Shown here: in pieces, positions 4,517-48,243 of the stretch
How the letters are laid out: every line of letters begins with the position of its first letter
Numbering within the stretch: the stretch's first letter is position 1
IMG/VR virus record: IMGVR_UViG_3300042261_000588
Location: 32,001 to 96,000 of that record
Strand: one strand, 5' to 3'
Origin: a virus
Length of the DNA stretch: 64,000 nt
Program-made: the position numbers and the translations under genes
Notes under the pieces: model-generated
The model's database searches: none
What the model was told of the DNA's origin: nothing
The model's input: only the letters and a program-made list of their open reading frames with translations

Positions 4517-7360
4517 GTGGCTTTTTTGAGTGTTGATTCAACAAATTCTTTGGTCGTATATGACGCTTACAATCATAGAGCCGTCATTGGCGATCTTGGT
4601 GGATACTGGGATGCCGATAAAAAGGCATGGGTAATCGTATTCACAATTGCCAATCTAGAAGGACTCTTGGATGCCATTCCTGATATTTCTGTGTCTGAAG
4701 ACCTGTCGAATAAGGTCAAGGAGCAGATGGAGAAGGAGGCTAAGCTCGAAAAACTAAGGGCTATGTCGAAGCAGGATGTTCCAGTGAGTCTTCGCATTCC
4801 TGGTATGAAGTTGCCATTGTATAACTATCAGAGGCTTGGGGTTATGTATGCGGCAACGAATCGGGTTGGACTGCTTCTAGCGGACGAAATGGGACTTGGC
4901 AAAGCCGAAGTTGTTGATAATCAAGTATTTACAACTACAGGACGCCGCAGGATAGGGAGCTTGAAGATTGGAGATAATGTAATAGGGAAAGACGGAAAAC
5001 CCCATTGTGTTGTTGGCGTTTATCCACAGGGGATGCAAGATATTTATCGGGTTTGGTTCAATGATGGGTTTTACCTAGATGTTGGACCAGAACACCTGTG
5101 GGAAGTAAGGTCAAACAACCAACACAACAAAAAAAGAACATCGAAGGGTGTTGTGTTATCGATGAGTCAACTTCTTGACAAGAATGGAGTTTCAAATAGG
5201 GTTGGCGAGGGACACAACAGAGATAAGGTATATGAGTTCAAGACATATTACAAGAAGTCTAACGGCGACAACAGTTGGGTAATACCAATGGTTGATGTTA
5301 TTGATTTTGAAAAAAAAGAAGTTTTGATGGACTCGTATCTTCTGGGAGTGTGGCTTGGAGATGGGCATATCTGTAAGAACGGGCATGTAATATTGAGAAT
5401 GCTAAAGACGGACTTGGAAGATATGCCTATTGGCGGGAAGACCCTATCCGGTAAGCGACCACATGTGCAATCTGTTTCGTTTGACATGTATAAAAAAGAG
5501 TTGGTCAATCTTGGTTTAAACGGAAAGAGAGCTTGGGAAAAGTTCATACCTGTCGACTATAAATACAATTCTGAAGAAGTAAGACTTGGAATCATTCAGG
5601 GGTTGATGGATACAAATGGTCATGCGGCAGATGGTGAGACCGAGTTTTCGACCAGTTCCAAGCAGTTGTGTGACGATGTGGTTGAGATTGTTCAAACGCT
5701 TGGCGGTATTGCAAGAGTGAGGACGAAAATACCGACATATTGGCATAAGGGAGTAAAGAAGACGGGAAGGACATCGTATAGGGTCAACATCAAGTTGCCT
5801 TCTGGTGTTGTTCCGTTTCGTCTATCTAGAAAGATTGCGGACTATGACATGTGCCGTAAGTATGCCCCTGAGCGATATATTTGTAATATTGAAAAACTCG
5901 CAGAAAAGAAAGAAACGGTTTGCATCTCAGTCGATGCGCCTGATAATCTTTATGTCACGGAACATTGTATTGTCACTCATAATACCCTCCAGGCTATCGG
6001 AACATCTCTATTCCTGAAGGCTTATGCTGGAGCCACAAAGGCACTCATTGTCACTCCGGCTTCACTCAAATTCAACTGGCCGTTGGAGATAGAAAAGTTT
6101 ACGGATGAGAAGTATGTAGTAATTGATGGAACACCCGAGGAGCGTGTCGCTCAATGGCTTCGTGAGGATGTGTTCTTTTACGTGGTCAACTTCGAGTTGT
6201 TGTTGGAGGACTTGTTCGGAGGTAGAAAGTTTAGAGAAAAGAAGGGTGAGTCAGACGAGGATAAGGAGAAAAGGCTTGCTAGGCATGAGAAGATTTCTGT
6301 TAAGGCTAAACAGAGGAGAGGAATACTAGACAGAGTTCGTAATAGAGTATGGGATATTATTGCAGTTGATGAGGCGCAGGCGATCCGACATCATTCTTCG
6401 AGCAGGACTAGGAATTTGAAGGAGTTGAAGGCCAAGTGTAGGATGGCTCTTACGGGAACTCCGATGGATGGAAGGCTTGAGGAGTTGCACAGTCTGATGC
6501 AGTTCGTGGCTCCTGGATTGCTCATGTCAAAGACTAGGTTCTTTCAACGGTATGTCGAGACCGACTTCTGGGGCAGGGTTACGGGATACAAGTGCATCGG
6601 CGAAGTATCACAGAAGATTCAGCCGTTCTTTCTTAGAAGGCTCAAGAAAGATGTGTTGAAGGATTTGCCTGACAAGGTTTATCACAACCGTATTGTTTCG
6701 ATGGATGCCAGTGAGCATAAAATTTATAAGTCTATTGCAGAGCAGGGGCATGAGGCGACAGAAGACGCTCTTGCCGTTGTTGCATTGATCAGGTGTAAAC
6801 AGTTCTGCAATTTGCCTAAGATGGTTGATCCTTCATGTACGACGAGTTCCAAGCTGGATGAATTCAAAGATGTAGTCGACGAGGTTGTGCTTCAAAATGG
6901 ACACAAGGCATTGATATTCAGCCAGTATAAGGAGATGCTGGATGTCATTGTGTCGGAATTGGAAAAGATGGGTATCAAGTATCTCAGAATTGACGGGGAT
7001 ACGCCTACAATACAGCGTGCTTCTATGCAGAAGCAGTTTAATGAGGATAAAGCTATTGACGTGATGGTTGGAACTGAGGCAATGTCTACTGGATTGAACT
7101 TCCAGTCTGCGGATTATGTCATCAACTATGATGATAACTGGTCTCCATCTATTATGGCTCAGCGTGAAGACAGAGCGCATCGGAATGGGCAGAGGAATGT
7201 GGTGACTATCGTGAACTTTATATGCCAAGACACAATCGAAGAGAGAATTCGTGGAGTAATCTATGCAAAGAGTCGAATGTCATCACAAGTTCTTGGTGAC
7301 GAGACTGAAGAACATATCCTGAAAAGATTGGGTCCTAAAGATTTGGCCAAACTATTGTGA
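4517..7360 (+). CDS. SNF2-family helicase/ATPase containing an intein
   Basis: YQRLG Q-motif, LADEMGLGK|T, DEAQ, LTGTP, LRRLKKDV, IFSQY, RIDG, GLNFQ, QREDRAHRNGQ. Confidence 0.95.
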   Translation: MAFLSVDSTNSLVVYDAYNHRAVIGDLGGYWDADKKAWVIVFTIANLEGLLDAIPDISVSEDLSNKVKEQMEKEAKLEKLRAMSKQDVPVSLRIPGMKLPLYNYQRLGVMYAATNRVGLLLADEMGLGKAEVVDNQVFTTTGRRRIGSLKIGDNVIGKDGKPHCVVGVYPQGMQDIYRVWFNDGFYLDVGPEHLWEVRSNNQHNKKRTSKGVVLSMSQLLDKNGVSNRVGEGHNRDKVYEFKTYYKKSNGDNSWVIPMVDVIDFEKKEVLMDSYLLGVWLGDGHICKNGHVILRMLKTDLEDMPIGGKTLSGKRPHVQSVSFDMYKKELVNLGLNGKRAWEKFIPVDYKYNSEEVRLGIIQGLMDTNGHAADGETEFSTSSKQLCDDVVEIVQTLGGIARVRTKIPTYWHKGVKKTGRTSYRVNIKLPSGVVPFRLSRKIADYDMCRKYAPERYICNIEKLAEKKETVCISVDAPDNLYVTEHCIVTHNTLQAIGTSLFLKAYAGATKALIVTPASLKFNWPLEIEKFTDEKYVVIDGTPEERVAQWLREDVFFYVVNFELLLEDLFGGRKFREKKGESDEDKEKRLARHEKISVKAKQRRGILDRVRNRVWDIIAVDEAQAIRHHSSSRTRNLKELKAKCRMALTGTPMDGRLEELHSLMQFVAPGLLMSKTRFFQRYVETDFWGRVTGYKCIGEVSQKIQPFFLRRLKKDVLKDLPDKVYHNRIVSMDASEHKIYKSIAEQGHEATEDALAVVALIRCKQFCNLPKMVDPSCTTSSKLDEFKDVVDEVVLQNGHKALIFSQYKEMLDVIVSELEKMGIKYLRIDGDTPTIQRASMQKQFNEDKAIDVMVGTEAMSTGLNFQSADYVINYDDNWSPSIMAQREDRAHRNGQRNVVTIVNFICQDTIEERIRGVIYAKSRMSSQVLGDETEEHILKRLGPKDLAKLL
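4904..5983 (+). mobile_element. Class 3 intein (360 aa) with LAGLIDADG homing endonuclease domain, inserted in the Walker A motif
   Basis: Splits GLGK|T; starts with Ala, ends VTHN before +1 Thr; W (EHLW), C (VCISVD), T (VTHN) triplet; LLGVWLGDG and IQGLMDTNG motifs. Confidence 0.92.
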
Positions 7361-12433: not shown

Positions 12434-12874
12434 ATGTCAAATACATTATGGGCAAAACATCATTATGCCAAATGTTTCGGGTTTTGGGTTGTATCTGAAT
12501 TGGAGTGTGTCAAGTGTGCTCTATCCGAAAGTTGTGAAAAAAGGACTAAAGCTAAAGTAGAAGAAGTTGATCGCTCTAAGGATTCGGATGTAGATACAGA
12601 GGCAGATGGGAATGTAGAATCAGAAGAGGTTCCAGTACTTTCTCCTTTAAACTATCTAATTCAAAGTCTTGCTGGTAAGTTTGATCAGGAAACAGATGAG
12701 AAGGAGAATGCTATTCTTCATAAGTTTCGTAATAATGGAAGAACAGTGATTGCTGTTGCCATAGGAGCTTATGGGAAAATCAAGATCGTTTCTGTAGTCA
12801 AGAATACGTCTAAAGTATTCGACAAATTAGAAAGCATTGATGAGGTTGAGTCAGTGCTAAAGGAGATGTTGTGA
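12434..12874 (+). CDS. Hypothetical protein with N-terminal CFG-x7-EC-x2-C-x5-C motif
   Basis: Four-Cys motif; abuts the sigma gene. Confidence 0.6.
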   Translation: MSNTLWAKHHYAKCFGFWVVSELECVKCALSESCEKRTKAKVEEVDRSKDSDVDTEADGNVESEEVPVLSPLNYLIQSLAGKFDQETDEKENAILHKFRNNGRTVIAVAIGAYGKIKIVSVVKNTSKVFDKLESIDEVESVLKEML

Positions 12875-17835: not shown

Positions 17836-18963
17836 ATGAGCGTGTTAGACAGGTTGACGAAAGCACAAGCGTCTCGTCCGCAGGGCGGGACCTTTCAAAA
17901 GGTCAAGGGTATCTTCCATAACTGGAAGGTAGGAGTAAATCGGATTCGTCTGGTTGGTGACTATACGGAGGTGAGAACACATTTCATCGCTCCGTCGCAA
18001 AAGTCGCAAAAGAGGAAGGATCGTGGTTTGTGCATGGCAACGGCATTCCAAGGTAACGATAAGATTCCACAAGTCATCAACTGCCCCGATTGGGATATCG
18101 CCCTAGAGCGTCCCAAGAAGGAAAAGAGTTGCCCTATCTGCAAGTTGAATGCGGTTGCTAAAGCGGTTCTCGCAGAAAAGCCGAGTGCCGAAGAGAAGGA
18201 GTTCTTCGAGAATCTGCGGGCTGCTTCTCGGGCGACGAATACACTCAAGTGGAATATCATTGATCGTGACGACCCGTTTGTCGAAGTGGATAACGACGGT
18301 AAGACTGAGAGGGTTCTGGGATTCAAGATTGCTTCTGTTGGAGCGGAAGCCTTCAAAGATATCACCGGAATCTACATGCAGCTCGGGTATGACATCAATG
18401 AACCTGACAAGGGAATCGACATCGAGGTCACTCGGGATGATAAGGGTGCTCGCACGACTTACTCTGCTCGTCCGGTTATTGAGGGCACATCTCTCAAGGT
18501 GACGCCGCTCACAAAGGAAGAGAGAGCATTGGCACTCCATGATCTCAAGGTTCGTTGTGGACGGCAGACTGAAATCGACAAGATCGTGAATGCTCTTCAC
18601 GACGATCTTCGTCAGATCATTTCCGTTGACGTGACGGAAGAAGAACCTGATGTTGATGCTGCGGTTGAGGAAGCTGTGGCTGAAGTTTCAACGCCTGATC
18701 CTGCACCTCGTCCGACGACTCAGGCTCCTAAGACTGCGGCTCCGACGGCTCGTCCTGCGGCTCCTGCGGCTCCTGCGGCTCCGACGGCTCGTCCTGCGGC
18801 TCCGACAGCGAGTAAGGTGCCTGCGTCAGTGTTGGATAGACTCCAGAAGAAGCCTACCGTGGCTAATGCCGTGGTCGAAACTCCTGAGGATGAAGCACTT
18901 CTGGAAGCCATTGAGGGGGACGGCGACGGACTTCTCGGTGGCGATTCGATAAAAAAAAATTAA
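17836..18963 (+). CDS. gp32-like single-stranded DNA-binding protein (short form)
   Basis: NRIRL, HF, CP..CPIC, NIIDRDD, D...P..G.DI...R......T.Y; Pro/Ala linker; acidic tail. Confidence 0.75.
   Translation: MSVLDRLTKAQASRPQGGTFQKVKGIFHNWKVGVNRIRLVGDYTEVRTHFIAPSQKSQKRKDRGLCMATAFQGNDKIPQVINCPDWDIALERPKKEKSCPICKLNAVAKAVLAEKPSAEEKEFFENLRAASRATNTLKWNIIDRDDPFVEVDNDGKTERVLGFKIASVGAEAFKDITGIYMQLGYDINEPDKGIDIEVTRDDKGARTTYSARPVIEGTSLKVTPLTKEERALALHDLKVRCGRQTEIDKIVNALHDDLRQIISVDVTEEEPDVDAAVEEAVAEVSTPDPAPRPTTQAPKTAAPTARPAAPAAPAAPTARPAAPTASKVPASVLDRLQKKPTVANAVVETPEDEALLEAIEGDGDGLLGGDSIKKN
18736..18806 (+). repeat. Internal tandem repeats encoding the APTARPA/PAA linker
   Basis: gcggctccgacggctcgtcct twice plus repeated cctgcggct units. 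Confidence 0.8.
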
Positions 18964-19160
18964 CCTCGGTTGAGGATGGTGCGGCTCCGGTTAAAACGGT
19001 GTCCGCACCAGTTTCTGATAAGGCTGCGGTTAAGACTCAAGTCGAATCTCCAATCAGTGTCAGTCCATCCGATTATGTCTGTTTCGGGACTATCGACAAG
19101 AGTCACCCGGAGTGTCAGAAGTGTCAGAACAACACACTGTGTGAAGAAGCGACGAAGTAA
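18960..19160 (+). CDS. -1 frame extension of the SSB ending in a Cys4 motif (no start codon of its own)
   Basis: 66 open codons after the A9 run: LTSVEDGAAPVK...DYVCFGTIDKSHPECQKCQNNTLCEEATK*. Confidence 0.75.
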   Translation, partial: LTSVEDGAAPVKTVSAPVSDKAAVKTQVESPISVSPSDYVCFGTIDKSHPECQKCQNNTLCEEATK

Positions 19161-19165
19161 AATTG

Positions 19166-19202
19166 CGGGAGGCGGTTGGGCAACCGACCGTCTCCCGTTC
19201 TT
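19166..19202 (+). terminator. Strong hairpin after the extended SSB (terminator or processing stem)
   Basis: cgggaggcggttgg-GCAA-ccgaccgtctcccg, 14 bp with G-U pairs, followed by ttctt. Confidence 0.65.
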
Positions 19203-19213
19203 GGGAGGATTTT

Positions 19214-20353
19214 ATGGCTAAAAGAGAAGTGAAAGAATTTGTAGATGAGCGGTCTGAAAGGATTGGCAAAATCTGCAAGATAATCAATGCTGGTACGTTC
19301 GGCGGAGAGAACAAAGATGCCGTAACATGGCTTGGTTCTCGCGAAGCAGTGTCAATTGAACGTTTCCCATCTGGTGATCCCAGTTTGGATGAGGCTCTTG
19401 GTGGTGGTTGGCCTAAAGGCCGATTCATAGAAATATACGGCTCCGAGTCCGGTGGTAAAACGACATTGGCTCTACACGCTATAGTCGAGCATCAGAAGAA
19501 GTATCCCGATGAGGATTGTGCTCTGATCGATACTGAGTATACATTTGACGAGCTATATGCTTCGGCAGTTGGCGTCAATACGAAGTATCTGATTGTGCAT
19601 CAACCCGATTCTGGCGAACAGGCATTGAACATCCTCAAGTTGTTGATGCAGAATGGAGTGAAGTGTATTGTCGTTGACTCTGTGGCTGCTCTGACAACGA
19701 AGGCGGAACTTGAAGGTGACATTGGCGATATGCATGTTGGTCAGCAAGCTCGTTTGATGAGTGGTGCCCTGCGTCAGTTGGGTGCTGTGGCTGGAAATAC
19801 GAATTCCACGGTGTTCTGGACAAACCAGATGCGAGACAAGATCGGCGTGACGTGGGGTGAGAAGACCACAACGCCTGCTGGTCGAGCTCTTCGCTTCTAT
19901 GCCTCGATTCGTGCCCATATCTGTGCCATTGGAAAGATCAAGGAGAAGATTAACGGCGAGGATGTGGTCGTTTCATCGAGAAATAAAGTGGATGTGAAGA
20001 AAAACAAGACAGCGCCGCCTTTCAGGGTCGCTGAGTTCTGTATCTCGTTCGGACATGGTATCGATAAGGTCGCCGGGATACTGGATATGGCAATGGCTAT
20101 GAAGGTCGTTACCAAGAAGGGTTCGTGGTTCAGTTGTGGAACAGAACAGCTTGCTCAGGGTCGTATTCAAGTGCTAGACTTGATGCGCAAGAATGATGTT
20201 CTCACTCAGGGAATCCTCGAAAAGATTGAAGCGGCTAAGGCGGCTGGCGTCGTTCCAGAAGAAGAGCCTGATGTCGAGAAGGCAGTGAATAAGGGAGAAG
20301 ACCCTGACGCTATCGACGGAGCTGAGGAAGGGGCGGAAGTTCAAGATGTCTAG
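19214..20353 (+). CDS. recA: RecA recombinase
   Basis: GSESGGKTT, DSVAAL, QARLMS, NQMRDKIGV, GRALRFYAS, KNKTAPPF. Confidence 0.97.
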   Translation: MAKREVKEFVDERSERIGKICKIINAGTFGGENKDAVTWLGSREAVSIERFPSGDPSLDEALGGGWPKGRFIEIYGSESGGKTTLALHAIVEHQKKYPDEDCALIDTEYTFDELYASAVGVNTKYLIVHQPDSGEQALNILKLLMQNGVKCIVVDSVAALTTKAELEGDIGDMHVGQQARLMSGALRQLGAVAGNTNSTVFWTNQMRDKIGVTWGEKTTTPAGRALRFYASIRAHICAIGKIKEKINGEDVVVSSRNKVDVKKNKTAPPFRVAEFCISFGHGIDKVAGILDMAMAMKVVTKKGSWFSCGTEQLAQGRIQVLDLMRKNDVLTQGILEKIEAAKAAGVVPEEEPDVEKAVNKGEDPDAIDGAEEGAEVQDV

Positions 20354-47472: not shown

Positions 47473-48243
47473 ATGGAAGTAGACCACATATCGGCATCGG
47501 CGGTCAAGACATACAAACAATGTCCCTTGAAATTTTGGGCGGTTTATGTCGAAAAGCTCCCCGAGCCACCTCCTCATCCCAATACCGTCATGGGGTCATG
47601 TCTCCACGACATGATGGAGTCGGCGACAAATCAGAGGATGATCCCGGATAGTGATCCAGATAAGCATGATCCGATGTTCTGGAAAGAAGCTGCTGTCACT
47701 CAGCATAAGGTCGAGAGGCAACTTCTTCCGGTGATTGATGAATTGGTTGCCAATGCGGTTCGGTGGGGATATTTCAGGAACATTCATAGAACAGTCGGTT
47801 GTGAAATCAAGATCGAGTTTCCACTTCCTAATGGTATCAATGTGACGGGGTATATTGACCGTCTGGATGTGATGACCCCAGACATGGACATCATTGATCT
47901 CAAGACGCAGAAGAACGCCTTTGAACCGGACGAGCTAAGTGATAATTGGCAGGCTCGAATTTACAATATCGGCGCAAGGCGTCTTAGGCCGGACATAACA
48001 GGGATTGCTACCGTTTCATTTTGGGTATTGCGCCATCAGGTTCAGAGGGTTATACTAAATTCCCAAGATGCGGATAACGACATTATTCGTCTTGCGAGTA
48101 TAGTAGATGAGATTCGTGCATGCAAGGACCCTGAAGGCAAGCCTTCTGGATTGTGTCCTTGGTGTCCGTATGAGAAGCAGTGTCCTACGAAGAATGGCAA
48201 TGCAAGGTATCGGTTGAAAAATGCAAAAAACAAAAAAGCGTAG
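47473..48243 (+). CDS. PD-(D/E)XK nuclease, RecB/Cas4-like
   Basis: S.S....Y..CP, G...H, E, G.IDRLD, IIDLKT, Q...Y, CPWC....C. Confidence 0.88.
   Translation: MEVDHISASAVKTYKQCPLKFWAVYVEKLPEPPPHPNTVMGSCLHDMMESATNQRMIPDSDPDKHDPMFWKEAAVTQHKVERQLLPVIDELVANAVRWGYFRNIHRTVGCEIKIEFPLPNGINVTGYIDRLDVMTPDMDIIDLKTQKNAFEPDELSDNWQARIYNIGARRLRPDITGIATVSFWVLRHQVQRVILNSQDADNDIIRLASIVDEIRACKDPEGKPSGLCPWCPYEKQCPTKNGNARYRLKNAKNKKA

What the first reader, a model, noticed from the sequence alone, without database searches (positions are those of the whole stretch)
18949..19160. Probable programmed -1 frameshift/slippage giving the SSB an optional Cys4 domain
Seen: the SSB ends ATA AAA AAA AAT TAA over nine A's (18951-18959). 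The -1 frame continues for 66 codons with the same Ala/Pro/Val linker composition and ends in CFG-x7-EC-x2-C-x5-C. It has no start of its own and stops just before the strong hairpin at 19166. Hairpins follow the run (cctc/gagg 18964-18975; tggtgcgg/ccgcacca 18977-19010). Established: A_AAA_AAN heptamers and A9 runs drive ribosomal frameshifting or transcriptional slippage, as in dnaX. Inference: two SSB isoforms, one ending near the acidic tail and one with a metal-binding interaction module.
Basis: partly seen in the sequence, partly recalled or inferred. Interest (0 to 1): 0.8.

Follow-up and report, generated by a model that had tools for sequence, protein, structure and literature searches.

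The report
Conserved frameshift extends phage SSB
The DNA-coating protein (SSB) gene of this large uncultured phage ends in a slippery run of A's that very probably lets some ribosomes slip back one base and add a 66-residue tail with a four-cysteine metal-binding module. The arrangement is kept across dozens of related phages, and I found no published description of it.

Summary

- **In the window:** the gp32-like SSB gene (17836-18963) ends ATA AAA AAA AAT TAA, with A9 at 18951-18959. The -1 frame runs on for 66 codons to 19160 and ends in a C-x10-C-x2-C-x5-C module.
- **Across relatives:** of 70 non-redundant homologous loci from metagenomes, 45 need a -1 shift to reach the module, 17 are in-frame fusions, and none has it as a separate gene.
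- **Slip site:** 44 of the 45 carry an in-phase X_XXY_YYZ heptamer, 0-6 nt from the 0-frame stop in 43 of them. The background rate is 0.28% per codon. Most are A9 runs, but four are C_CCA_AAA, G_GGA_AAC, C_CCT_TTC and A_AAG_GGT, which only ribosomal slippage explains.
- **RNA structure:** stable hairpins with compensatory base changes follow the site.
- **No own start:** the extension has no conserved start codon.
- **Not an assembly error:** two independent assemblies of the closest relatives also have A9.

Best reading: a programmed -1 ribosomal frameshift, possibly helped by transcriptional slippage at A9, gives a 375-aa and a 441-aa SSB, much as dnaX gives tau and gamma. The function and metal (Zn or Fe-S) of the module are unknown.

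First-stage notes of this scan describe the same feature in other genomes.

The parts
17836..18963 (+). gp32-like SSB gene, 0 frame (short isoform, 375 aa)
   Evidence: ORF. PHROG 1192 'single strand DNA binding protein', E 6e-13. AlphaFold model pLDDT 80, with residues 1-265 folded and the tail disordered. The six best Foldseek matches in the PDB are all T4/RB69 gp32 (E 1.7e-5 to 2e-3).
18951..18960 (+). Slippery site: A9 run (18951-18959) holding two in-phase heptamers, A_AAA_AAA (18951-18957) and A_AAA_AAT (18954-18960)
   Evidence: The same position holds an in-phase X_XXY_YYZ heptamer in 44 of 45 frameshift-type homologs.
18961..18963 (+). 0-frame stop codon TAA directly after the slippery site
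   Evidence: In homologs the stop lies 0-6 nt after the heptamer in 43 of 44 cases.
18971..18973 (+). +1-frame stop TGA, three codons after the 0-frame stop
   Evidence: The +1 frame closes within 2 codons in 24 of 45 loci and within 5 codons in 36 of 45, against 11% and 20% at control positions.
18960..19027 (+). Downstream RNA stem-loop. The conserved inner stem is 18972-19015, with its core tggtgcgg/ccgcacca at 18977-19010.
   Evidence: MFE -37.8 kcal/mol, z -3.56. Consensus structure of 7 relatives has 24 pairs, 9 with compensatory changes.
18951..19160 (+). -1 frame extension, 66 codons after KKK, with stop at 19158-19160. The long isoform is about 441 aa.
   Evidence: The frame is open in all 45 frameshift-type loci (47-226 codons, median 66). 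There is no conserved start codon.
19080..19142 (+). Four-cysteine module C-x10-C-x2-C-x5-C (CFG...EC..C.....C)
   Evidence: The four Cys are invariant in 63 sequences; Gly17 and Glu25 are above 90%. AlphaFold pLDDT 82. A profile finds 144 cluster representatives among 1.8 billion proteins.
12434..12874 (+). Second protein of the same genome with the same module at its N-terminus (Cys motif from 12473). It lies between the sigma-like gene and the helicase gene.
   Evidence: It is hit at E 1.7e-4 by a module profile built without it. A syntenic counterpart exists in five related phage records.

Best explanation
The SSB gene is decoded in two ways.

- Most ribosomes stop at TAA 18961 and make a 375-aa gp32-like SSB, which ends just after its acidic tail.
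- A fraction slip back one base while two Lys-tRNAs sit on A_AAA_AAA / A_AAA_AAT (18951-18960). The adjacent stop codon and the stem-loop at 18972-19015 probably help. These ribosomes go on in the -1 frame to 19160.
- The result is a 441-aa SSB carrying a flexible linker and a C-terminal four-cysteine metal-binding module.

The site therefore fixes a ratio of two isoforms that share the DNA-binding core and differ in a C-terminal module. This is the logic of dnaX tau/gamma and of the phage tail chaperones G/GT.

On A9 runs, RNA polymerase slippage that adds one A would give the same long product and may contribute.

What is shown: the anatomy and its conservation. What is inferred: that the shift happens, its efficiency, and the role of the module. 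The module is probably a docking or metal/redox module, shared with a small protein encoded next to the helicase gene.
For: 1. Conservation. Of 70 non-redundant homologous loci, 45 need a -1 shift to reach the module, 17 are in-frame fusions, and none has it as a separately initiated gene.
2. Slip site. 44 of 45 have an X_XXY_YYZ heptamer in 0-frame phase inside the short 0/-1 overlap, 43 of them 0-6 nt from the stop. The background is 0.28% per codon.
3. Heptamers other than A runs. These are C_CCA_AAA (L036), G_GGA_AAC (L039), C_CCT_TTC (L045) and A_AAG_GGT (L094). The overlaps are only 10-43 nt. The tree scatters these loci among A-run lineages.
4. Downstream RNA structure. The 75 nt after the stop fold with mean z -2.77, against -0.53 for control windows (n = 45, Wilcoxon p = 4e-6).
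5. Covariation. Three lineage-specific hairpins show compensatory pairs: 9 of 24, 7 of 23 and 5 of 11. In two of these lineages the spacer after the heptamer is 6-8 nt.
6. No independent start. 9 of 45 loci have no ATG, GTG or TTG between the stop and the first Cys. Elsewhere the candidate starts are not conserved.
7. The module is a real domain. It has four invariant Cys in 63 sequences. It is fused in frame to the same SSB in 17 loci and in 17 cluster representatives.
8. Not an assembly error. L019 and L020 are independent assemblies at about 91% identity and also have A9 plus a stop.
Against: - No expression data exist. The frameshift product and its efficiency are inferred.
- In the window's own lineage the strongest stem begins 11-14 nt after the heptamer, longer than the usual 5-9 nt. 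The closer cctc/gagg hairpin is not conserved.
- A9 is kept far more often (28 of 45) than a heptamer alone requires. This fits transcriptional slippage as well or better.
- There is no general upstream SD-like stimulator as in dnaX (p = 0.09).
- Exceptions: L037 has no heptamer in a 130-nt overlap. L026 has A9 in a register that needs +1, not -1.
- The host is unknown, so the shiftiness of its tRNA-Lys is unknown.
Confidence: 0.8

Rival explanations
1. Transcriptional slippage is the main route in A9 lineages, including this window. RNA polymerase adds one A on the A9/T9 template, and A10 transcripts encode the fused protein by standard translation, as in Thermus thermophilus dnaX. Ribosomal frameshifting would then be minor here.
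For: - 28 of 45 loci keep exactly A9 and 3 keep A10, more than a heptamer needs.
- The +1 frame closes within 1-5 codons in 36 of 45 loci, so A8 transcripts would still give a near-normal short SSB.
- L021 shows the A10 fused form at the DNA level. L026 has an odd register. Both show that run length does vary.
Against: - Four lineages use heptamers with no homopolymer, and nine use A6-A8.
- Conserved, covarying hairpins lie downstream of the site, where they act on ribosomes. By established knowledge, slippage stimulators lie upstream in the nascent RNA.
- A stop codon abuts the site.
Confidence: 0.2
2. Assembly or sequencing error in a homopolymer. The real gene has A10 and is a plain in-frame fusion, so there is only one isoform.
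For: Homopolymers are error-prone.
Against: - A9 plus a stop recurs in dozens of independent assemblies from different samples, including the nearest relatives L019 and L020.
- Non-homopolymer heptamers sit at the same position.
- 85 of 144 module-bearing cluster representatives are short ORF fragments of the kind gene callers produce when the frames differ.
Confidence: 0.02
3. The extension is a separate small gene, translated on its own by internal initiation or by termination-reinitiation after the SSB stop.
For: A GTG lies at 18999. Gene callers often call such fragments.
Against: - No SD motif precedes the GTG, and the start position is not conserved.
- 9 of 45 loci have no start codon at all before the module.
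- The -1 frame is open right back to the heptamer in all 45 loci.
- The module is fused in frame to the SSB in 17 loci.
Confidence: 0.03
4. DNA-level phase variation. The A run expands and contracts during phage replication, so the population mixes A9 (short) and A10 (long) genotypes.
For: A9 and A10 states both occur among close relatives (L021 against L001 and L025).
Against: Non-homopolymer heptamers and conserved RNA hairpins are not explained. A10 states are rare: one shown, a second inferred, among about 40 A-run loci and proteins.
Confidence: 0.03

Closest known systems
E. coli dnaX tau/gamma -1 frameshift (A_AAA_AAG + downstream stem-loop) and Thermus thermophilus dnaX (A9 transcriptional slippage)
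   Same: - It is a replication protein.
- The slippery sequence is identical (most relatives read A_AAA_AAG; the window reads A_AAA_AAA/AAT).
- A stable downstream hairpin follows.
- Two isoforms share the N-terminal part and differ by a C-terminal interaction region.
- Homologs may alternate between ribosomal and polymerase slippage.
   Different: - In dnaX the shift truncates the protein (gamma). Here the 0 frame is the short form and the shift extends it.
- There is no conserved upstream SD-like stimulator.
- The 0-frame stop abuts the site.
- The gene is an SSB, not a clamp-loader subunit.
Phage tail assembly chaperones G/GT (lambda G_GGA_AAG and relatives)
   Same: It is a conserved phage -1 frameshift that adds a C-terminal extension to a fraction of the product. 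The heptamer identity varies between lineages while the frameshift is kept. Gene callers miss it.
   Different: The gene class differs (replication, not morphogenesis). The extension here is a small Cys4 module rather than a tape-measure-binding domain.
[quoted passage not shown]
   Same: The predicted core fold matches best. The core has conserved Cys residues at a zinc-site-like position. The C-terminal region is disordered and acidic. The gene lies beside the recombinase gene.
   Different: - Sequence identity is only about 12-14%.
- There is no Pfam PF08804 hit for the window's protein.
- As far as I know, and as far as the papers searched show, gp32 has no recoding site and no C-terminal Cys4 module.
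4Fe-4S cluster sites with C-x2-C-x5-C spacing (EndoIII/MutY cluster loop C-x6-C-x2-C-x5-C; WhiB-like proteins; Cas4/AddB 'iron staple')
   Same: The C-x2-C-x5-C spacing is the same, often with Pro after the second Cys of CxxC. The same genome has a PD-(D/E)XK nuclease (47473-48243) with a C-x10-C-x2-C-x5-C stretch near its C-terminus.
   Different: No profile match reaches a Pfam threshold. WhiB is hit by only 2 of 63 members at E 0.038, and the C-terminus of DDE_Tnp_1_6 by 10 of 63 at E >= 0.014. There is no structural match. The metal is untested.

Membership tests
Programmed -1 ribosomal frameshift site | X_XXY_YYZ slippery heptamer in phase with the 0 frame | tested here: met
   Window: A_AAA_AAA 18951-57 and A_AAA_AAT 18954-60. 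44 of 45 homologous frameshift-type loci have one, against a 0.28% background.
Programmed -1 ribosomal frameshift site | The -1 ORF overlaps the end of the 0-frame ORF, encodes a conserved product and lacks its own initiation signal | tested here: met
   In-frame fused homologs show that the product belongs to the SSB.
Programmed -1 ribosomal frameshift site | Stimulatory RNA structure about 5-9 nt downstream | tested here: inconclusive
   Structure is enriched in 45 loci. Covarying hairpins with 6-8 nt spacers occur in two lineages. In the window's lineage the conserved stem starts 11-14 nt after the heptamer.
Programmed -1 ribosomal frameshift site | The frameshift is kept while the heptamer sequence changes between lineages | tested here: met
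   C_CCA_AAA, G_GGA_AAC, C_CCT_TTC and A_AAG_GGT occur among A-run lineages. L036 (C_CCA_AAA) shares its hairpin with the A-run loci L033, L038 and L055.
Programmed -1 ribosomal frameshift site | The trans-frame protein is observed | not testable with these tools
   This needs a reporter assay or mass spectrometry.
dnaX-type site specifically | Upstream SD-like stimulator about 10 nt 5' of the heptamer | tested here: not met
   Anti-SD duplex energies upstream of the site are not different from control positions (p = 0.09).
Transcriptional slippage site | Homopolymer run of about 9 or more A/T | tested here: met
   A9 in the window. A9 or A10 in 31 of 45 loci, but absent in at least 4 loci and only A6-A8 in 9.
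Transcriptional slippage site | Transcripts heterogeneous in run length | not testable with these tools
   This needs cDNA deep sequencing.
T4 gp32-like SSB | gp32 core fold | tested here: met
   The top six Foldseek matches are gp32 of T4/RB69, E 1.7e-5 to 2e-3, probability 0.97-1.00, but TM is only 0.43-0.50 by target.
T4 gp32-like SSB | Family profile match | tested here: inconclusive
   PHROG 1192 at E 6e-13 and PHROG 1607 at E 2e-3. No Pfam hit for the window's protein. One homolog carries PF08804. No PDB sequence hit.
T4 gp32-like SSB | Binds single-stranded DNA cooperatively | not testable with these tools
   This needs a biochemical assay.
4Fe-4S cluster-binding modules (EndoIII loop, WhiB, Cas4 type) | Cys spacing C-x2-C-x5-C plus a fourth Cys | tested here: met
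   C-x10-C-x2-C-x5-C is invariant in 63 sequences.
4Fe-4S cluster-binding modules (EndoIII loop, WhiB, Cas4 type) | Significant profile or fold match to a known Fe-S family | tested here: not met
   No Pfam family reaches its threshold. No PDB sequence match and no fold match.
Zinc ribbon / zinc finger families | Profile match or paired CxxC knuckles | tested here: not met
   There is only one CxxC pair and no significant Pfam zinc-finger hit.

The most novel reading that the evidence does not exclude
The four-cysteine module is a small 4Fe-4S (redox- or iron-sensing) docking domain shared by the long SSB isoform and by the small protein encoded between the sigma-like gene and the helicase gene. 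Through it, a set fraction of SSB on single-stranded DNA would be tied to the helicase or to the phage's transcription factor. That would be a replication-transcription or replisome-assembly link, dosed by frameshifting and of a kind not described for any SSB.
Probability: 0.12. Interest if true: 0.85.

Novelty: new member of a known kind. Interest (0 to 1): 0.62.

Why it matters
- **A new case in a new gene class.** Conserved programmed frameshifts in bacteria and their phages are few: dnaX, prfB, IS elements, tail chaperones and some capsid genes. This would add a replication gene, the SSB, in a large family of uncultured big phages. The comparative support is unusually clean: heptamer turnover, covarying stimulators, and both fused and frameshifted states on one tree.
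- **A missed protein form.** These phages would make two SSB forms in a set ratio, the long one carrying an undescribed Cys4 module. Gene callers split or drop it: 85 of 144 module-bearing cluster representatives are orphan fragments.
- **A natural test series.** The family could be used to ask when A9 runs act through ribosomes and when through RNA polymerase.

Tried and rejected
- **Cultured relatives:** none found. blastn against the phage collection gave only low-complexity hits. tblastn of the SSB gave no match. A scan of prokaryote genomes gave no locus.
- **The extension as a query on its own:** no Pfam or PHROG hit and no longer homologs by word search.
- **Module profile:** no PDB sequence match and no Pfam family at threshold.
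- **Module model:** no match by Foldseek or VIA-align wide.
- **ESM Atlas look-up:** failed because the machine was busy.
- **Rfam:** no known frameshift element or other RNA family at 18700-19300.
- **Upstream SD-like stimulator:** not enriched.
- **Codon-position test of the extension between the closest relatives:** too few differences to be informative.
- **DNA of the fused homolog P0005:** not available.
- **SSB profile against PDB sequences:** no hit. Fold search was needed instead.
- **Tree:** the careful search did not finish, so only the quick tree was used.
- **Literature:** three full-text searches and two recoding papers (a review and the PRFect tool paper) gave no report of a frameshift in a phage SSB gene. 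This is absence in the library searched, not proof.
Full report
**1. What is in the window**

- The ORF 17836-18963 (+) encodes a 375-aa protein. Its last codons are GAT TCG ATA AAA AAA AAT TAA, with nine A's at 18951-18959 and the stop at 18961-18963.
- The -1 frame is open from the run to a stop at 19158-19160. After KKK it reads 66 more residues and ends ...DYVCFGTIDKSHPECQKCQNNTLCEEATK.
- The +1 frame closes after three codons, at TGA 18971.
- The next gene (19214-20353) is a RecA/UvsX-type recombinase with a strong Shine-Dalgarno motif. A 5'-3' exonuclease gene follows it.
- The window is part of a 143,854-bp IMG/VR virus record estimated to be 67% complete, so this is a large phage.

**2. 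The gene is an SSB of the gp32 kind**

- The protein matches PHROG 1192 ('single strand DNA binding protein', E 6e-13) but no Pfam family.
- An AlphaFold model built on 41 homologs has mean pLDDT 80. Residues 1-265 are folded and the last 110 or so are disordered.
- The six best Foldseek matches in the PDB are all gp32 of T4 or RB69 (E 1.7e-5 to 2e-3), with modest TM-scores of 0.43-0.50 by target.
- I therefore call it gp32-like by fold and context, not a close family member.

**3. The same arrangement in relatives**

- A protein search gave 69 homologs at 40-82% identity. Nearly all end ...KKK, KKN, KKT or KKS, meaning a Lys run sits right at the stop. Three run on in frame into the same Cys module.
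- I fetched DNA for 18 IMG/VR loci and 80 metagenome loci and walked each SSB frame to its stop.
- After removing duplicates, 70 loci (the window's own among them) have the stop inside the fetched DNA:

| Class | Loci | Notes |
|---|---|---|
| Module in the -1 frame | 45 | frameshift-type |
| In-frame fusion | 17 | mostly one clade |
| Module in the +1 frame | 2 | L026, L047 |
| Cut by the contig end | 4 | not classifiable |
| No module | 2 | end ...IELPF |

- No locus has the module as a separate gene cut off by stops.

**4. The slip site**

- In 44 of the 45 frameshift-type loci, a canonical X_XXY_YYZ heptamer lies in 0-frame phase within the short overlap of the two frames. In 43 of the 44 it is 0-6 nt from the 0-frame stop; in L088 it is 27 nt away.
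- Elsewhere in the same genes such in-phase heptamers occur at 39 of 14,127 codon positions, or 0.28%.
- The usual form is nnA AAA AAA AAG TAA. This combines A_AAA_AAA and the dnaX-type A_AAA_AAG with an adjacent stop.
- Run lengths are A9 in 28 loci, A10 in 3, A8 in 2, A7 in 6 and A6 in 1 (L088's A9 lies further upstream).
- Four loci have no homopolymer at all. They are C_CCA_AAA (L036), G_GGA_AAC (L039), C_CCT_TTC (L045) and A_AAG_GGT (L094), with overlaps of only 10-43 nt. By established knowledge of tandem tRNA slippage, these fit ribosomal frameshifting and cannot be read as polymerase slippage.
- A quick maximum-likelihood tree of the SSB cores places these loci among A-run lineages. 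It shows the frameshift state across most of the tree, with one mainly fused clade (11 of 13) and scattered fused tips.

**5. RNA structure downstream**

- The 75 nt that start at the 0-frame stop fold more stably than shuffles in most loci. Mean z is -2.77, against -0.53 for same-length windows inside the SSB core (n = 45, Wilcoxon p = 4e-6). These were mononucleotide shuffles in my own script.
- Three lineages show homologous hairpins with compensatory changes:

| Lineage | Pairs | Pairs with compensatory change | Spacer after heptamer |
|---|---|---|---|
| Window's lineage (7 sequences) | 24 | 9 | 11-14 nt to the conserved stem |
| L033, L036, L038, L055 | 23 | 7 | 8 nt |
| L005, L006, L044, L054 | 11 | 5 | 6 nt |

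- In the window the conserved stem is tggtgcgg/ccgcacca (18977-19010) within a longer structure (18960-19027). The region folds with z -3.56.
- Its distance from the heptamer (11-14 nt) is longer than the textbook 5-9 nt. The small cctc/gagg hairpin closer to the site is not conserved.
- No Rfam family matches.
- There is no general upstream SD-like element as in dnaX.

**6. The extension is not a gene of its own and not an error**

- Nine of the 45 loci have no ATG, GTG or TTG anywhere between the SSB stop and the first Cys. In the others the candidate starts are at varying positions and mostly lack an SD motif. The window has one GTG without an SD.
- Among fused loci, L021 has A10 (TTA AAA AAA AAA GTA ACG). 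With A9 it would read AAG TAA like its neighbours.
- The other fused loci have neither a run nor the KKK.
- So A9/A10 variants or miscalls do occur, but they are rare. The two closest relatives of the window, from separate assemblies, share A9 plus a stop.
- Two exceptions remain unexplained. L037 has no heptamer in a 130-nt overlap. L026 has A9 in a register that would need +1; with A10 it would be canonical.

**7. Ribosome or polymerase?**

- For ribosomal frameshifting: the non-homopolymer heptamers, the adjacent stop and the downstream covarying hairpins.
- For some contribution of transcriptional slippage: the strong preference for exactly A9, and the fact that the +1 frame closes at once. 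It closes within 2 codons in 24 of 45 loci and within 5 in 36 of 45, against 11% and 20% at control positions. Often this is through a TAAnTGA pattern. That pattern would make A8 transcripts harmless.
- Both routes give the same long protein.
- Established precedent, from my own knowledge: homologous dnaX genes use one route or the other (E. coli against Thermus thermophilus).

**8. The module**

- An alignment of 63 sequences has four invariant Cys with fixed spacing C-x10-C-x2-C-x5-C, plus Gly and Glu in over 90%.
- It has no significant Pfam, PHROG or PDB match. A confident small model (pLDDT 82) matches no solved fold.
- A profile search of 1.8 billion cluster representatives found 144 proteins:
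  - 85 are short fragments, 75 of them with the module at the C-terminus. This is what gene callers produce from the -1 extension.
  - 17 are fused SSBs.
  - The remaining 42 are longer than 160 aa and lack the SSB core. Of those scanned, several carry HEAT plus cNMP-binding, TPR or double zinc-ribbon domains.
- The same genome has a second copy at the N-terminus of ORF 12434-12874, which sits between a sigma-70 region 2 protein and the helicase gene. A profile built without that ORF still finds it at E 1.7e-4.
- Five related phage records, both frameshifted and fused types, each carry such a second module protein 6-7 kb upstream of the SSB, just before the helicase gene.
- The C-x2-C-x5-C spacing is what EndoIII/MutY, WhiB-like and Cas4/AddB proteins use for 4Fe-4S clusters (my knowledge, not tested here). 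A PD-(D/E)XK nuclease of this genome has a C-x10-C-x2-C-x5-C stretch near its C-terminus.
- Whether the module binds Zn or Fe-S, and what it docks to, is open.
- A side observation fits a docking role for this end of the protein. Two related SSBs lack the module and end ...IELPF, like the partner-binding tip of bacterial SSB.

**9. Comparison and novelty**

- Mechanistically this is a standard bacterial-type -1 frameshift site, closest to dnaX and to phage G/GT.
- What is new is the gene (a phage SSB), the direction (the shift extends the protein rather than truncating it), the undescribed Cys4 module, and the breadth of the comparative evidence.
- No cultured phage in the collection searched has this SSB. 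Three literature searches and two recoding papers, a review and the PRFect tool paper, gave no earlier report.
- First-stage notes of this scan describe the same feature in other genomes, including one with a C_CCG_GGT heptamer that I did not check.

**10. Verdict**

- My confidence that this is a conserved programmed recoding site giving two SSB isoforms, with ribosomal -1 frameshifting as at least a main route, is 0.8.
- Class: new member of a known kind. Interest: 0.62.

Noticed in passing
window 12434-12874 (+); L106, L107, L109, L110, L111: A small protein (about 140-250 aa) with the same C-x10-C-x2-C-x5-C module at its N-terminus. It is encoded right after the sigma-70 region 2 gene and right before the helicase gene. 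A syntenic counterpart lies 6-7 kb upstream of the SSB in all five related phage records examined.
   Followed up: partly
window 47473-48243 (+): A PD-(D/E)XK nuclease (PF12705, E 4e-28) with one N-terminal Cys and a C-terminal C-x10-C-x2-C-x5-C stretch (CPWCP...C). This looks like the Cas4/AddB-type Fe-S arrangement.
   Followed up: partly
L080, L087 (proteins P0067, P0069): Two related SSBs have no Cys module and no slippery site. They end ...DDIELPF, which resembles the partner-binding C-terminal tip of bacterial SSB.
   Followed up: no
L012, L050, L056 (-1 extension of 225-226 codons): In one lineage the frameshift extension is much longer. It carries double zinc-ribbon motifs (Pfam DZR in the matching fragments P0092 and P0100) before the terminal Cys4 module.
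   Followed up: partly
L026:970-990 and L037:1180-1312: Two loci break the rule. L026 has A9 followed by TAGC TAA, so the module is in the +1 frame; A10 would make it canonical. L037 needs a -1 shift but has no slippery heptamer in its 130-nt overlap.
   Followed up: partly
window 19166-19208: A strong hairpin (gggaggcggttgg/ccgaccgtctccc) lies right after the extension's stop. An alternative terminator-like hairpin (19191-19208) includes the RecA gene's Shine-Dalgarno motif GGGAGG. This may control recombinase expression.
   Followed up: no
many loci, first 7 nt after the A run (for example TAAcTGA, TGAtTGA, TGAgTGA): The 0-frame stop is very often followed one base later by a +1-frame TGA, so both non-productive frames close at once.
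   Followed up: partly
proteins P0072, P0098, P0121, P0133: The Cys4 module also occurs, sometimes in several copies, in long proteins with HEAT repeats plus a cyclic-nucleotide-binding domain, or with TPR repeats (one also has an Mrr-type nuclease domain). It is therefore not confined to phage SSBs.
   Followed up: no
window 5310-5317: The only other A8 run in the window. I did not examine it.
   Followed up: no
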